The notes under the pieces: model-generated
Seen by the model: only the letters and a program-made list of their open reading frames with translations
Database searches by the model: none
What the model was told of the DNA's origin: nothing
Made by a program: the position numbers and the translations under genes
Sequence record: LC788710.1
DNA length: 64,000 nucleotides
Strand: one strand, 5' to 3'
Source: Escherichia coli phage Wa28
Part shown: one piece after another, positions 10,470-23,632 of the stretch
How positions within the stretch are numbered: position 1 is the stretch's first letter
Layout: every line of letters begins with the position of its first letter

Positions 10470-10847
10470 TGAATACTATTAGGGGATGATCAGTCCTCCA
10501 TTTGGCCGTCTAAGGTACCAAAGTTAGTCATTCTGCGCACAGGTTTTTCTCCTGATTCTTTATTGCGAATGCTCTCTAATAATACTCAATTGTGGCGGCT
10601 CTCCGAAACTCTTCTACTCTAGCCTTAGCAGCTTACTCCCGAACGCATGTCGGGAAAGTCTTACTAAGAACATCAAATAGCACCGTTACACTTTGAGCCA
10701 TTAATGTATCAAGAAGCAGAAGGACTTGAACCTTCACGAGATAGACCATTTATCTCAGCCTCGTTTTCGGGTATCTTATGAGGAGTGGATGTTCCCCTTA
10801 CGCCCTTTAGGAAGCCCCGTCTACCGATTCCGGCATACTTCAAGATT
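10470..10847 (-). other. ORF-free segment inside tRNA cluster with T-arm-like motif; candidate degenerate tRNAs or small RNAs
   Basis: No ORF of 60 aa or more on the transcribed strand; GAAGGTTCAAGTCCTTC motif (reverse complement near 10720) without an obvious acceptor partner. Confidence 0.3.
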
Positions 10848-11938: not shown

Positions 11939-12200
11939 AAAATCTTTAAGTTTACTAAGGCTATTAGCTCGGTGTGCGTATTACCCTCAGACATTAGCCA
12001 GTAGAGGATAACCGCTCTTCACAAACCCGATACACTATTCAGTTGCCGCTGAATCTAGTGGACTAATCTAGAACTTATTGCAAAGTATCCCCCGCCATTA
12101 AGGGTCTACTTGCAATTGTGCTTTTTGGCAGCCAGTCCTAGGTCGAGCTAATACCTTAGTGAACTTTGATGAGGATTTCTCCTCATCAATTTATATAAAT

Positions 12201-13618: not shown

Positions 13619-13872
13619 CTACATTTTTTAATAAATTTACTTATTGCGTAGGCCACCTGGAGGGTTCAAGCCCCACGGCTGACAAAGAAGTTTGCGAGAC
13701 TTCTCTTAAACGCCAGAATAGACCCGCCGATCTATCGGAACCTACTCAATAAGTAAACTTTCGTTTACCTACACCTACCTGGTCGGGAGGATTTTCAGCG
13801 ACTAGAACCGGCCGGAAACTCATCGCCTTGTTTATCTAGGAGTCCGTTCTCTAGGAAGCAGAAACCTAAATT

Positions 13873-13946: not shown

Positions 13947-14159
13947 ATAATAAGTCAATCTAGGCAGGACTTGAACCTGCTATCACTTGTGCGGATTTAC
14001 GAGAACCATTCTTTCACTCGAATCGAACGAGCTTCTACCCTCGGCAAGCTGGTGTCCCCTCTCCACCACGCTAGAATGATAATTAGTGCCTGCTCCTTTG
14101 AATCAAGAAGTCCACCCCGGACTTTGGGTCTTTGCAGTACATCACGCTGCTCTGATGTT
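13947..14159 (-). other. ORF-free segment with two T-arm-like motifs; candidate degenerate tRNAs or small RNAs
   Basis: GCAGGTTCAAGTCCTGC and CTCGTTCGATTCGAG (reverse complement) without clean acceptor partners. Confidence 0.3.
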
Positions 14160-15078: not shown

Positions 15079-15181
15079 ATCTATTTCCTCAGTTGTTAAT
15101 GAAAAATGGTATCTGTGACTGAATTCGATATCAGCAATGATAGCTGGTTGGCTACCGGTTTACTTAACTCTACACAGAATA

Positions 15182-22217: not shown

Positions 22218-22292
22218 TGGCCGAGGTGACAGGATTCGAACCTGCATAAAGGAATTTAGAAGACTCCTGCCTATCCCTTAGACTACACCCCG
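22218..22292 (-). tRNA. tRNA-Arg (anticodon TCT), manual call
   Basis: CAGGTTCGAATCCTG T-arm, anticodon stem-loop GGAGT-CTTCTAA-ATTCC, CCA end. Confidence 0.55.
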
Positions 22293-22299
22293 TTTAGGT

Positions 22300-23130
22300 A
22301 TTTTTAAGAACTCTTATAAAAGCTCTTAAAGATACCAGACGGTAGGTAGGGTCAGCCCCCTCAGATTAAGCTCTGCAGCCCTTCCGTCAGACAATATCTT
22401 CCAGTTTAAGTCAGGGTGACTTTGTGGTTATGTTCTCCGTATGTGAAGAACTCGGTTAGGCTTAGGTCATGACTCCCAGCCTACTGCTGCCGCTCAACAG
22501 GAATTATCGCGAATTACCTGTACTATTGGGCACCATTAGTGACATCTCTCATGTCAGCGTTTCCCACTCTCATATTCACGCGGTCTGTTAGAATCGCACC
22601 TCCGATTTTCGATGCGAAGCTGGATGCCTAGTCTCAGGTTAAACGGGGCACACACTAGGCAGTGATCCCGAGTTCCGAGTTTGGTTGAGGCCGTCAGGTT
22701 TCCTCGTGGTTTAGCTGTTTCGATTCTAACCTAATACTGATCAGGTGGCGTACCTCCTGAACCGTCATAGTATGTACTCCAGCAGCGAATGCTTATCCGG
22801 TATAAGCCCGAGTTATCTGATTCTTTCCGACCGCAGGATTCGAACCTGCATCTTCCACCAGTTACGGTTTGATATTACCGTTTATACTAGGACGGCAGTG
22901 TTATCACATAAGTCAGTTCGACACCCCACTAACATAAACTAGAGAAGAGTTTACGAGATTTCGGGACAGCTCCCGAGTTTTCCGCAGATTTTCAGTTCCC
23001 TATCAATAGCAATAAGCGTTAGCTCGTAGCCTCTCTCAGAGTACTTACTAGTCTCCAACTCACCGACTCTATTCAGTGGAATAGCTATCCTAGTAGGAAT
23101 CACTAAACTCACTCAGCGTAATCGGCTCGC
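22300..23130 (-). ncRNA. ~0.8 kb promoter-driven region without ORFs; candidate structured noncoding RNA(s) with a tRNA-like T-arm element
   Basis: No minus-strand ORF of 60 aa or more; early promoter at 23152-23180 points into it; GCAGGTTCGAATCCTGC element near 22826-22850; locally higher GC. Confidence 0.35.
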
Positions 23131-23151
23131 TGTTCTCTAATTTATGAATCT

Positions 23152-23180
23152 ATTATACAGAATTTTGAGGCGTTTAGCAA
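23152..23180 (-). promoter_or_regulatory. early promoter directed into the noncoding region
   Basis: Conserved module (-35 TTGCTA, 17 bp, -10 TATAAT). Confidence 0.6.
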
Positions 23181-23188
23181 ATCAATTT

Positions 23189-23632
23189 TTAATTAAATTC
23201 GCCAGCAACCTGAGCAGCAATGCCACCGTCGTAACGACCAGGAAACTCTTCCTTAATCGCTTTCATCAGCATACCTTTTGTAATCCCAGGGTTCAACTTA
23301 ACTAATTCTGCAAAGTATTTGCGAATCTCAGAATCAGATAACTGAGGCGGCAGATACTGTTGTAGCCATTTGTTCAGTATATACTCATACTGAGCAGACT
23401 GCAAGCTATAATTATCAAGGTCTTGACCGTGAAGTTTAGCTTTCGTCTGATTAATGCTTTTCAGTTGAGCTTTTAGATAAGATACAAACTGTTCAGAAGT
23501 AATGAAGTCTTTATCAACACGCTGAAGATCTCCGATTATGGTCTGGTAGCTTTTAGCTACTTCTTTATCAGAACCATCAACCTTAGATTCCTGCAAAGCC
23601 CTACGCAAAACATCTAGAATATTCTCTTCCAT
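23189..23632 (-). CDS. GatB/YqeY-domain protein
   Basis: 147 aa; overall similarity to YqeY family, C-terminal GGIAAQVAGEF. Confidence 0.5.
   Translation of the reverse strand: MEENILDVLRRALQESKVDGSDKEVAKSYQTIIGDLQRVDKDFITSEQFVSYLKAQLKSINQTKAKLHGQDLDNYSLQSAQYEYILNKWLQQYLPPQLSDSEIRKYFAELVKLNPGITKGMLMKAIKEEFPGRYDGGIAAQVAGEFN

What the first reader, a model, noticed from the sequence alone, without database searches (positions are those of the whole stretch)
22300..23130. Promoter-driven ~0.8 kb stretch with no ORFs: candidate long structured RNA with a tRNA-like element
In an otherwise tightly packed genome this region has no minus-strand ORF of 60 aa or more, yet a canonical early promoter (23152-23180) points straight into it. 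It is locally more GC-rich than its surroundings and contains a tRNA-like T-arm (GCAGGTTCGAATCCTGC near 22826-22850) with a 5-bp stem and 8-nt loop in place of a normal anticodon arm and no D-arm. A canonical tRNA-Arg sits at its distal end. It could be a precursor for small stable RNAs or a regulatory or decoy RNA.
Basis: seen in the sequence. Interest (0 to 1): 0.6.

Follow-up and report, generated by a model that had tools for sequence, protein, structure and literature searches.

The report
Phage T5 "RNAX" large structured RNA
This promoter-driven, ORF-free 0.85-kb stretch is the counterpart of rnaX, a large stable non-coding RNA already annotated in phages T5 and BF23; it folds into an elaborate, evolutionarily conserved structure with a built-in tRNA look-alike, and its function is still unknown.

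Summary
A near-consensus T5-type early promoter (23180-23152, minus strand) fires into about 850 nt with no conserved ORF. The stretch is richer in G+C than its flanks and ends 4 nt before tRNA-Arg(UCU).

It is not a new locus. GenBank records of T5 (AY543070) and BF23 (NC_042564) annotate the homologous stretch as misc_RNA rnaX, "RNAX, stable RNA with unknown functions", with the same promoter (P16-17) and the same abutting tRNA-Arg.

What I add:
- **Distribution.** Homologues occur in about 527 T5-like phage records (Escherichia, Salmonella, Klebsiella, Pectobacterium, Pantoea), with rearranged relatives in 14 Proteus and Providencia phage records. None was found in bacterial genomes.
- **Structure.** Base pairs show compensatory changes in three separately tested blocks: 12/33, 5/24 and 19/41 pairs. 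Pairing is 90-96%, against 31-52% in slid controls.
- **Folding energy.** The z-score is -3.9 on the transcribed strand only.
- **Rfam.** The only match is the tRNA model on the embedded tRNA-like element (29.3 bits; threshold 29).
- **tRNA-like element.** It has acceptor, D and T arms but a variable, non-decoding "anticodon" arm. Some phages have replaced it with a plain hairpin.
- **Invariant loop.** An 8-nt hairpin loop, AGUCAUGA, is invariant and self-complementary.

The closest analogues are the giant phage RNAs GOLLD and ROOL, but membership of either was tested and not met.

The parts
23152..23180 (-). Sigma-70 early promoter: -35 TTGCTA, 17-nt spacer, -10 TATAAT. Homologue of T5/BF23 'promoter P16-17'.
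   Evidence: 10/12 matches to consensus; same -10 and initial-transcribed consensus as other early promoters in the window; promoter P16-17 annotated at the homologous place in T5 and BF23.
22293..23145 (-). RNAX transcript, about 853 nt. The start at A23145 is predicted from the -10 spacing. The T5/BF23 annotation would place the 5' end at the equivalent of 23138. The 3' end is taken as the RNase P site at the 5' end of tRNA-Arg.
   Evidence: Homology to annotated rnaX. MFE z-score -3.87 on this strand, against -0.43 antisense and -0.74 for a neighbouring CDS. The transcript ends are inferred, not measured.
23134..23145 (-). P1 helix, 5' strand (AUAAAUUAGAGA). Pairs with 22945-22934 and so sequesters the 5' end.
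   Evidence: helix 1 is 88.5% paired, with 3 pairs changed on both sides. In short forms (T5, SHSML-45) P1 closes a simple hairpin.
22934..22945 (-). P1 helix, 3' strand (UCUCUAGUUUAU).
   Evidence: coordinates.
22946..23133 (-). Variable 5' domain. Contains hairpin H1 (23132-23114, CAGCG/CGCUG). The H1 loop CCGAUU (23125-23120) pairs with AGUCGG (23068-23063).
   Evidence: H1 is 100% paired with a G-C to A-U swap. The loop-downstream helix is 94.9% paired, with C-G changed to A-U or U-A in 3 sequences. The domain is absent in T5 and SHSML-45 and is replaced by an HNH ORF in mar003J3 and smaug.
22896..22933 (-). M1 motif (GUUAGUGGGGUGUCGAACUGACUUAUGUGAUAACACUG). Nearly invariant, with possible pseudoknotted pairings, and it runs directly into the acceptor stem of the tRNA-like element.
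   Evidence: Invariant columns. Also present in Proteus and Providencia phages. It varies too little for covariation to fix its fold (helices 1-2).
22825..22896 (-). Embedded tRNA-like element. Acceptor stem 22896-22890 with 22832-22826 (G.A and U.U mismatches), D-arm 22887-22872, short 'anticodon' arm 22868-22857 (3-4 bp, 6-nt loop), T-arm 22849-22833. No encoded CCA.
   Evidence: Rfam tRNA 29.3 bits against a gathering score of 29; not called by ARAGORN. Compensatory changes in the acceptor stem, T-arm and 'anticodon' arm. The arm is long in Sugarland-type phages and 6 bp with a 3-nt loop in DU_PP_V. The whole element is replaced by another hairpin in phage 1-29.
22791..22825 (-). Conserved linker AAGAAUCAGAUAACU (22825-22811) and hairpin GCUUAU/AUAAGC (22807-22791).
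   Evidence: helix 8: 100% paired, 3 of 5 pairs changed on both sides. Also conserved in Proteus and Providencia phages.
22484..22790 (-). Central domain. Short conserved strings (UCGCUGCUGG, CAGCUAAACCAC, CCUCAACCAAAC, ACAGACCGCGUG, GUGGGAAA, CGCGAUAA) separated by hairpins and insertions that differ between clades.
   Evidence: Alignments. For example, GCUG/CAGC becomes GCUA/UAGC in DU_PP_V and a UUCG-capped hairpin in AAS21. No full model was built.
22457..22483 (-). Hairpin with invariant 8-nt loop AGUCAUGA (22474-22467), which contains the self-complementary hexamer UCAUGA.
   Evidence: the loop is AGUCAUGA in 19 of the 23 distinct sequence versions from 55 loci. L004, L011 and L026 have AAGUCAUGA, and My1 alone breaks the hexamer (AGUCAUG). 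The Proteus phages carry the same motif in a longer loop placed upstream of M1. The outer stem differs between clades (UAGGCU/AGCCUA, AGACU/AGUCU, AGGU/ACCU, GUGAC/GUCAC, CCUAGAC/GUCUAGG, UAGGCA/UGCCUA).
22295..22431 (-). 3' domain. CCA/UGG helix around hairpin AGUCA-CCC-UGACU (22421-22409), a three-way junction (22392-22336), and a long terminal hairpin (22336-22297).
   Evidence: Covariance model R1 and its alignment A5: 95.6% paired against 32-50% slid; 19/41 pairs changed on both sides against 8.6 +/- 1.4 in shuffles. Independent single-sequence folds give the same junction topology in five sequence types.
22218..22292 (-). Canonical tRNA-Arg (anticodon UCU), starting 4 nt after the terminal hairpin. 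Its 5' maturation by RNase P would create the RNAX 3' end.
   Evidence: 49.3 bits. T5 and BF23 annotate rnaX as ending exactly at the tRNA 5' end. The RNase P step follows from established tRNA processing and was not tested here.

Best explanation
This is the Epseptimavirus orthologue of rnaX of phages T5 and BF23. It is an about 850-nt non-coding, highly structured RNA, which the T5 and BF23 annotators describe as stable.

How it is made (inferred from sequence and established processing pathways):
- Host sigma-70 RNA polymerase starts at a strong early promoter, with +1 near 23145.
- The 5' end is locked into helix P1.
- Transcription runs on into tRNA-Arg without an intrinsic terminator.
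- RNase P cleavage at the tRNA 5' end leaves RNAX ending in a 17-bp hairpin plus 4 nt. This would protect it from exonucleases.

The RNA is modular. In order it has a dispensable 5' domain with a loop-to-strand pairing, the invariant M1 motif, and a tRNA-shaped module. That module has acceptor, D and T arms but no decodable anticodon arm and no CCA. After it come a central domain, a hairpin with an invariant self-complementary loop, a three-way junction and a terminal hairpin.

How it works (inference only): it acts through its fold, not by coding or by antisense pairing. The likeliest mode is a trans-acting scaffold in the phage's tRNA/translation programme. It would present a tRNA elbow to tRNA-binding factors (about 0.25), self-associate through the palindromic loop as GOLLD and ROOL do (about 0.2-0.25), or both.
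For: Identity:
- 100% match of the T5 element to the feature 'rnaX: RNAX, stable RNA with unknown functions', flanked by promoter P16-17 and tRNA-Arg. BF23 has the same feature.
- BF23 RNAX aligns to window 23138-23110, 22953-22791 and 22568-22293.
- Gene order is the same: YqeY-like gene, then RNAX, then tRNA-Arg, then the Band_7 gene.

Conservation:
- 527 phage records match.
- Element length ranges from 641 to 1293 nt, with invariant short motifs between variable hairpins.
- Distant versions exist in Pectobacterium, Pantoea, Providencia and Proteus phages.

Structure:
- tRNA-like block: 89.9% paired, 12 double-change pairs against 5.7 +/- 1.4 in shuffles, 0/500 shuffles as high.
- P1, H1 and loop pairing: 92.5% paired, 5 double-change pairs, 2/500.
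- 3' domain: 95.6% paired, 19 double-change pairs, 0/500.
- MFE z-score is -3.87 on the transcribed strand only.

Non-coding: no ORF of 30 aa or more is shared by all clades.
Against: - No expression, end-mapping or stability data could be reached here. 'Stable RNA' rests on the annotators' wording in GenBank.
- No paper on RNAX was found.
- The annotated T5/BF23 5' end lies 7 nt downstream of my predicted start.
- The A5 alignment was fitted to the model, so its pair counts lean towards the structure.
- Sequences fall into a few clades, so shuffle controls overstate significance.
- The central about 300 nt and the M1 motif have no resolved fold.
- Nothing tested here bears directly on function. 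The tRNA-like module is lost or replaced in some phages. This argues against it being the essential working part.
Confidence: 0.85

Rival explanations
1. Precursor model. The long transcript is only a processing intermediate. RNase P and 3' endonucleases cut out the tRNA-like element, and perhaps other pieces, as small stable RNAs. These would resemble the small tRNA-like RNAs 1-3 annotated elsewhere in the T5/BF23 tRNA region.
For: The element reaches the Rfam tRNA threshold (33-39 bits in other phages). BF23 carries separately annotated small 'tRNA-like RNAs' and small stable RNAs, and their orthologues are in this window. The downstream tRNA-Arg must in any case be cut out of the same transcript.
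Against: - T5 and BF23 annotators list a single 719/784-nt RNAX.
- The 5' flank of the acceptor stem is the invariant M1 motif, which can stack on it instead of being a free leader.
- The first pair is G.A, and there is no CCA.
- The element is replaced by a plain hairpin in phage 1-29, lacks the D-arm in one metagenomic variant, and is not found at that site in Proteus and Providencia phages. The flanking RNA stays conserved in all these cases.
Confidence: 0.12
2. Coding model. The region encodes small proteins, as annotated in several GenBank records ('hypothetical protein' in Seabear, Sugarland and Kpn K7 phages).
For: ORFs of 33 and 53 aa exist on the transcribed strand, and one of 65 aa on the opposite strand. 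Some records annotate them with ribosome-binding sites.
Against: - No ORF family is shared by all five clades. The widest one, antisense over the tRNA-like element, is confined to the two clades that share that nucleotide sequence.
- Conservation follows helices and loops with compensatory changes, not reading frames.
- Indels of any length occur between motifs.
Confidence: 0.02
3. Decay or spacer model. The stretch is a graveyard of degenerate tRNA genes and homing-endonuclease target sites, transcribed only as a leader for tRNA-Arg, with no function of its own.
For: It lies in a tRNA island, contains a marginal tRNA-like sequence, and is bordered by HNH endonuclease insertions in several phages. 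Modules are gained, lost and swapped.
Against: Short motifs stay invariant and helices keep pairing through double substitutions. This holds across phages of at least six host genera, where neighbouring protein identity falls to about 30-40%. A strong dedicated promoter is kept everywhere.
Confidence: 0.03

Closest known systems
rnaX (RNAX) of Escherichia phages T5 (AY543070) and BF23 (NC_042564), annotated 'stable RNA with unknown functions'
   Same: Same locus and orientation, between the YqeY-like gene and tRNA-Arg(UCU). Same promoter (P16-17), same conserved motifs, same 3' hairpin abutting the tRNA.
   Different: The window copy is 851 nt, against 719 nt in T5 and 784 nt in BF23. It carries the 5' domain that T5 lacks, and its central module is a different sequence type from the Tequintavirus one. 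Overall nucleotide identity to BF23 is only 78-84%, in three blocks.
GOLLD RNA (Rfam RF01998)
   Same: A very large (over 800 nt), ornate, phage-encoded non-coding RNA of unknown function, lying at tRNA islands. tRNAs are sometimes embedded in a variable part, and there is a conserved 3' region with a less conserved 5' region (PMC12286853). RNAX shares all of these descriptive traits.
   Different: No match to the Rfam model even at E up to 10. GOLLD is found in other bacteria and their phages, whereas RNAX is found only in T5-like virulent phages of Enterobacterales. Oligomerisation is shown for GOLLD and only conjectured here.
ROOL RNA (Rfam RF03087)
   Same: A large structured phage or prophage RNA near tRNA islands, with no known protein partner. 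Its nanocage is held by contacts in which the same sequence of different chains pairs with itself. The invariant self-complementary loop of RNAX would allow the same kind of contact.
   Different: No match to the Rfam model. Sequences and helices are unrelated. No assembly data exist for RNAX.
Viral and cellular tRNA-like modules inside longer RNAs: tmRNA, plant-virus 3' tRNA-like structures, MALAT1 mascRNA (from general knowledge)
   Same: A cloverleaf or L-shape mimic with a canonical T-arm embedded in a longer transcript.
   Different: The RNAX element is internal, not terminal, and has no CCA and no alanine-type identity pair. ARAGORN's tmRNA search finds nothing. No evidence of aminoacylation or excision.

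Membership tests
T5/BF23 rnaX (RNAX) family | Nucleotide homology to the annotated rnaX feature | tested here: met
   BF23 RNAX aligns to window 23138-23110, 22953-22791 and 22568-22293. The window element hits T5-like records, and the T5 copy is the rnaX feature.
T5/BF23 rnaX (RNAX) family | Synteny: own early promoter (P16-17) downstream of the YqeY-like gene, directly followed by tRNA-Arg(UCU) | tested here: met
   The YqeY Pfam match is 25.4 bits, just under the cut-off of 27.
T5/BF23 rnaX (RNAX) family | Accumulates as a stable RNA in infected cells | not testable with these tools
   Only the annotators' note is available. No paper or expression data were found.
tRNA (Rfam RF00005), for the embedded element | Covariance-model score at or above the gathering threshold | tested here: met
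   29.3 bits against 29, so marginal. Scores are 33-39 bits in T5-type, DU_PP_V and AAS21 copies.
tRNA (Rfam RF00005), for the embedded element | 5-bp anticodon stem with a 7-nt loop carrying an anticodon | tested here: not met
   The arm is 3-4 bp with a 6-nt loop in most copies. It is a long helix in Sugarland-type phages and 6 bp with a 3-nt loop in DU_PP_V. ARAGORN makes no call.
tRNA (Rfam RF00005), for the embedded element | Fully paired acceptor stem with a free 5' end and a 3' CCA or discriminator | tested here: not met
   G.A at the first pair and a conserved U.U at the fifth. AAAG follows the stem, and the M1 motif precedes it.
GOLLD RNA (RF01998) | Match to the family covariance model (conserved 3' domain) | tested here: not met
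   No hit at E up to 10 on 1 kb. None at E up to 1-5 on the window region and 13 homologous loci.
GOLLD RNA (RF01998) | Homo-oligomeric nanocage | not testable with these tools
   Needs cryo-EM or SEC-MALS of the transcript. Only a self-complementary invariant loop is seen.
ROOL RNA (RF03087) | Match to the family covariance model | tested here: not met
tmRNA; RNase P RNA; group I/II introns; 6S RNA; HEARO/omega RNA | Match to the respective Rfam models, or to the ARAGORN tmRNA search | tested here: not met
   Only tRNA hits passed any threshold.

The most novel reading that the evidence does not exclude
RNAX is a third, independent class of giant ornate phage RNAs alongside GOLLD and ROOL. 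On this reading it works as an RNA-only homo-oligomeric assembly. Copies would be joined through the invariant self-complementary AGUCAUGA loop, and the assembly would display tRNA-shaped modules. It would serve to capture or shield tRNA-handling or translation factors, or tRNA-targeting defence nucleases, during T5 infection. Because it sits in the classical, genetically tractable T5/E. coli system, the function of this whole kind of RNA would become directly testable.
Probability: 0.2. Interest if true: 0.8.

Novelty: already known. Interest (0 to 1): 0.5.

Why it matters
Giant, elaborately folded phage RNAs at tRNA islands (GOLLD, ROOL) have solved structures but no known function, and their hosts are hard to manipulate.

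RNAX has the same descriptive profile. It is large, covariation-supported, modular, sits in a tRNA island and carries an embedded tRNA-like element. Unlike them, it lives in T5-like phages of E. coli and Salmonella, where deletion, complementation and defence-system panels are routine.

It is absent from Rfam. It is also mis-annotated in hundreds of phage genomes as hypothetical proteins or as tRNA-Sec, tRNA-OTHER or tRNA-Leu. A proper family model would clean up annotation of therapeutic T5-like phages, and it would flag a conserved early function that current studies of T5 tRNAs and anti-defence genes ignore.

Tried and rejected
- **Rfam scans.** The window region was scanned at E up to 1 and up to 10, and 13 homologous loci at E up to 1-5. 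Only tRNA matched. This rejects GOLLD, ROOL, tmRNA, RNase P, introns, 6S and HEARO.
- **Spread beyond T5-like phages.** The M1 pattern was scanned in metagenome contigs: real hits were all T5-like contigs, and six hits were chance. It was scanned in one genome per bacterial species: one chance hit. RNAX was blasted against 5,426 complete E. coli genomes: no match. So there is no prophage or host copy and no long antisense target. Vibrio phage Thalassa has the YqeY-like gene but no RNAX.
- **Literature.** Four searches for RNAX or T5 stable RNAs found no paper on it. Known viable T5 deletions (Δ30661-38625 and Δ29191-32442; PMC11464382) stop short of rnaX, so they say nothing about whether it is dispensable.
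- **Whole-length alignment.** MAFFT plus RNAalifold on the full RNA and on the 3' block misaligned helices of different length. I replaced this with block-wise alignments and one covariance model. mafft-qinsi was not usable.
- **M1 fold.** Three competing pairings were considered. Variation is too low to choose between them.
- **Protein partner.** Linkage to the YqeY-like protein is not strict. The gene is adjacent in most genera, but it was not detected in Klebsiella (Sugarland-type) phages, which keep RNAX.
- **Origin of the T-arm.** It resembles that of the neighbouring tRNA-Arg in this window. That does not hold in T5, so I did not take it as evidence of a recent duplication.

Full report
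**1.

The window is a T5-like phage of the genus Epseptimavirus. The region is 99.9% identical to Salmonella phage Seabear. It lies at the upstream end of the phage's tRNA island, which carries 29 tRNA genes, all on the minus strand.

- Between the 147-aa YqeY-like gene (23632-23189) and tRNA-Arg(UCU) (22292-22218) there is no minus-strand ORF longer than 53 aa.
- A sigma-70 promoter, TTGCTA-17-TATAAT, sits at 23180-23152.
- Its -10 box and downstream sequence (TATAATAGATTCATAAATTAGAGA) match a consensus repeated at other early promoters in the window. Counting from the -10 box puts the start at A23145.
- G+C is 0.46-0.50 inside the region and 0.33-0.43 outside.
- The T-arm string is at 22849-22833.

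Rfam's tRNA model aligns end to end over 22896-22825 with a D-arm, at 29.3 bits against a threshold of 29. ARAGORN does not call it.

**2. What it is**

The T5 copy of this element is annotated in GenBank AY543070 as misc_RNA rnaX, "RNAX, stable RNA with unknown functions". It is 719 nt long, is preceded by "promoter P 16-17", and ends exactly where tRNA-Arg begins. The BF23 tRNA-region record NC_042564 carries the same feature at 784 nt. BF23 RNAX aligns to the window in three blocks: 23138-23110, 22953-22791 and 22568-22293.

Gene order is the same in all three phages: cell-wall hydrolase, DUF7616, YqeY-like gene, RNAX, tRNA-Arg, a small ORF, and a Band_7 protein. The finding is thus the orthologue of a gene already annotated as an RNA of unknown function. 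I found no paper about it in the searchable library. No Rfam family matches it.

**3. Distribution**

blastn finds the element in 527 phage records from Salmonella, Escherichia, Klebsiella, Shigella, Citrobacter, Yersinia and Pectobacterium phages.

- The copies I extracted from 31 distinct sequences are 641-1293 nt long.
- More distant versions occur in Pectobacterium phages DU_PP_V and My1 and in Pantoea phage AAS21.
- A rearranged, shorter form occurs in 14 Providencia and Proteus phage records. The covariance model R1, built from the window-type 3' domain, finds nothing in these four loci.
- Vibrio phage Thalassa has the YqeY-like gene but no such element.
- A pattern scan of metagenome contigs returned only T5-like contigs plus chance hits.
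- A scan of one genome per bacterial species returned a single chance hit.
- 5,426 complete E. coli genomes have no match.

RNAX is therefore a lineage-specific gene of T5-like virulent phages of Enterobacterales.

**4. Evidence that it is a structured RNA and not coding**

The alignment pattern is typical of a large structured RNA. Short invariant strings are separated by hairpins whose sequence and length change freely. Three blocks were tested with explicit pairings:

| Block | Cells paired | Slid controls | Pairs changed on both sides | Shuffles |
|---|---|---|---|---|
| M1 + tRNA-like element + following hairpin (16 sequences) | 89.9% | 31-52% | 12 of 33 | 5.7 ± 1.4; 0/500 as high |
| P1, hairpin H1, and H1 loop (CCGAUU) with downstream AGUCGG (13 sequences) | 92.5% | 35-48% | 5 of 24 | 2/500 as high |
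| 3' domain, aligned with covariance model R1 (27 sequences) | 95.6% | 32-50% | 19 of 41 | 8.6 ± 1.4; 0/500 as high |

The third alignment is fitted to the model, which favours the structure. However, independent single-sequence folds of five sequence types give the same three-way junction.

Other evidence points the same way:
- The predicted folding energy of the 851-nt transcript is 3.9 SD below dinucleotide shuffles. The antisense strand (-0.4) and a neighbouring coding stretch (-0.7) are not.
- No ORF of 30 aa or more is shared by all five clades.
- The "hypothetical proteins" annotated on the element in some records are therefore most likely artefacts.

**5. Anatomy in window coordinates**

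- **P1** pairs the first 12 nt (23145-23134) with 22945-22934 and encloses a 5' domain. T5 and SHSML-45 lack this domain. In mar003J3 and smaug an HNH endonuclease ORF replaces it.
- **M1**, the nearly invariant 38-nt motif (22933-22896), runs straight into the acceptor stem of the tRNA-like element.
- **The tRNA-like element** (22896-22825) keeps its acceptor and T arms through compensatory changes. It also keeps two odd features: a G.A first pair and a U.U fifth pair that becomes A-U or U-A in a few copies.
- **Its "anticodon" arm** is 3-4 bp with a 6-nt loop in this window. It is a long extended helix in Sugarland-type phages, again with compensatory changes between variants. In DU_PP_V it is 6 bp with a 3-nt loop. 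There is no CCA.
- **Loss of the element.** Phage 1-29 has a different hairpin closed by the same stem. One metagenomic copy lacks the D-arm. Proteus and Providencia phages have a plain hairpin at that site. The element is therefore a structural module, not a decoding tRNA, and not strictly required.
- **Downstream** come a conserved linker (GAUAACU) and a covarying hairpin, then a central domain I could not model fully.
- **The palindromic-loop hairpin** (22483-22457) has the 8-nt loop AGUCAUGA in 19 of the 23 distinct sequence versions from 55 loci. Three versions have AAGUCAUGA, and only My1 breaks the UCAUGA hexamer. The outer stem covaries. Proteus phages carry the same motif in a longer loop upstream of M1.
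- **The 3' domain** follows (22431-22295): a small hairpin, a three-way junction and a terminal hairpin.
- **The terminal hairpin** is about 17 bp (22336-22297) and is followed by UAAA and then tRNA-Arg.

**6. How it is most likely made and how it may work**

*Biogenesis.* These steps are inferred from sequence and from established knowledge of sigma-70 promoters and tRNA maturation. There is no terminator-like site between the hairpin and the tRNA, so RNAX and tRNA-Arg share a transcript. RNase P cleavage at the tRNA 5' end would define the RNAX 3' end. This is exactly where the T5 and BF23 annotators end the feature. A base-paired 5' end and a long 3' hairpin fit the "stable" label.

*Function.* Nothing here tests function. 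The architecture resembles the giant phage RNAs GOLLD and ROOL in these respects:
- large size;
- many covarying helices;
- invariant loops;
- location in a tRNA island;
- an embedded tRNA-like module;
- modular gain and loss of domains.

GOLLD and ROOL also sit at tRNA islands, may include tRNAs, and form RNA-only cages held by self-pairing contacts (PMC12286853). I therefore favour a trans-acting RNA that works through its three-dimensional shape. Two non-exclusive sub-hypotheses follow:
- It mimics a tRNA to bind or divert tRNA-handling factors or tRNA-targeting defence nucleases (about 0.25).
- It self-associates through the UCAUGA loop (about 0.2-0.25).

Membership in GOLLD or ROOL was tested with their Rfam models and not met. 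The resemblance is one of kind, not of family.

**7. Rivals**

- **Precursor for small RNAs (about 0.12).** This is made less likely by the annotation of a single long RNA. The paired context of the acceptor stem and the replaceability of the tRNA-like element also count against it.
- **Coding (0.02).** This conflicts with the ORF and covariation data.
- **Non-functional spacer (0.03).** This conflicts with the same data.

**8. Verdict**

The locus is already known as rnaX of T5 and BF23.

What is not in the annotation, in Rfam or in the literature I could reach is:
- its family-wide conservation;
- its covariation-supported architecture;
- the non-decoding nature of its tRNA-like module;
- the invariant self-complementary loop.

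Interest is moderate. It would rise sharply if RNAX proves to be an oligomeric "ornate" RNA, or an anti-defence tRNA mimic, in a tractable model phage.

Noticed in passing
window 10593-10699, 10700-10844, 12019-12153, 13645-13745, 13953-14078, 15107-15179 (all minus strand): These are orthologues of six further 'stable RNAs' or 'tRNA-like RNAs with unknown functions' annotated in the BF23 tRNA region: RNAI, RNA1, RNA 2H, RNAIV, RNA2 and RNA3. Identity is 78-96%. They fill several of the gaps between tRNA genes in this window.
   Followed up: partly
L008 315-797, L049 715-1197, L003 1652-2161, L007 1810-2322, L048 1923-2432, L047 1736-2281: ORFs of about 160-180 aa sit at both borders of RNAX in different phages. 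Only the mar003J3 copy at the border itself is annotated as an HNH endonuclease. Some lie between the promoter and the M1 motif, replacing the 5' domain (mar003J3, smaug). Others lie between the 3' hairpin and tRNA-Arg (1-29, S132, STWB21, My1). The very conserved M1 motif and 3' hairpin may double as homing-endonuclease target sites.
   Followed up: partly
L027 (phage T5) 5678-5910, reverse strand: T5 itself carries an internal duplication of about 87 nt. This gives two copies of the AGUCACCUUGAC hairpin plus the AAACUGGAA string within RNAX. T5 also lacks the whole 5' domain present in the window.
   Followed up: partly
window 22409-22421 and 22467-22474: The hairpin AGUCA-CCC-UGACU and the invariant loop AGUCAUGA share both half-sites (AGUCA and UGAC). 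Each half of the loop is therefore complementary to one strand of the hairpin. This leaves open an alternative or intermolecular pairing between the two elements.
   Followed up: no
Homologous loci in GenBank (e.g. MK728824 42278-42827; MG459987 42509-43548; NC_048010 69801-69872): Public records annotate the RNAX region inconsistently. The tRNA-like element appears as tRNA-Sec, tRNA-OTHER, tRNA-Leu, tRNA-Pro, tRNA-Ser or pseudo-tRNA. Non-conserved 'hypothetical protein' CDSs with ribosome-binding sites are placed on the RNA.
   Followed up: yes
window 23189-23632 (minus strand): The gene directly upstream of RNAX is widely annotated 'tRNA amidotransferase'. It only weakly matches the YqeY domain (25.4 bits, below the Pfam cut-off of 27). 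It is adjacent to RNAX in most genera, but it was not detected in Klebsiella (Sugarland-type) phages, which keep RNAX. Vibrio phage Thalassa has the gene and lacks RNAX.
   Followed up: partly
L045 1920-2040, L046 1920-2040, L040 3775-4460: In Proteus and Providencia phages the RNAX modules are in a different order. T-arm-like hairpins and, in Proteus phages, the GUCAUGAC loop lie upstream of the M1 motif, and the window-type 3' domain is absent. This suggests module shuffling or permutation within the family.
   Followed up: partly
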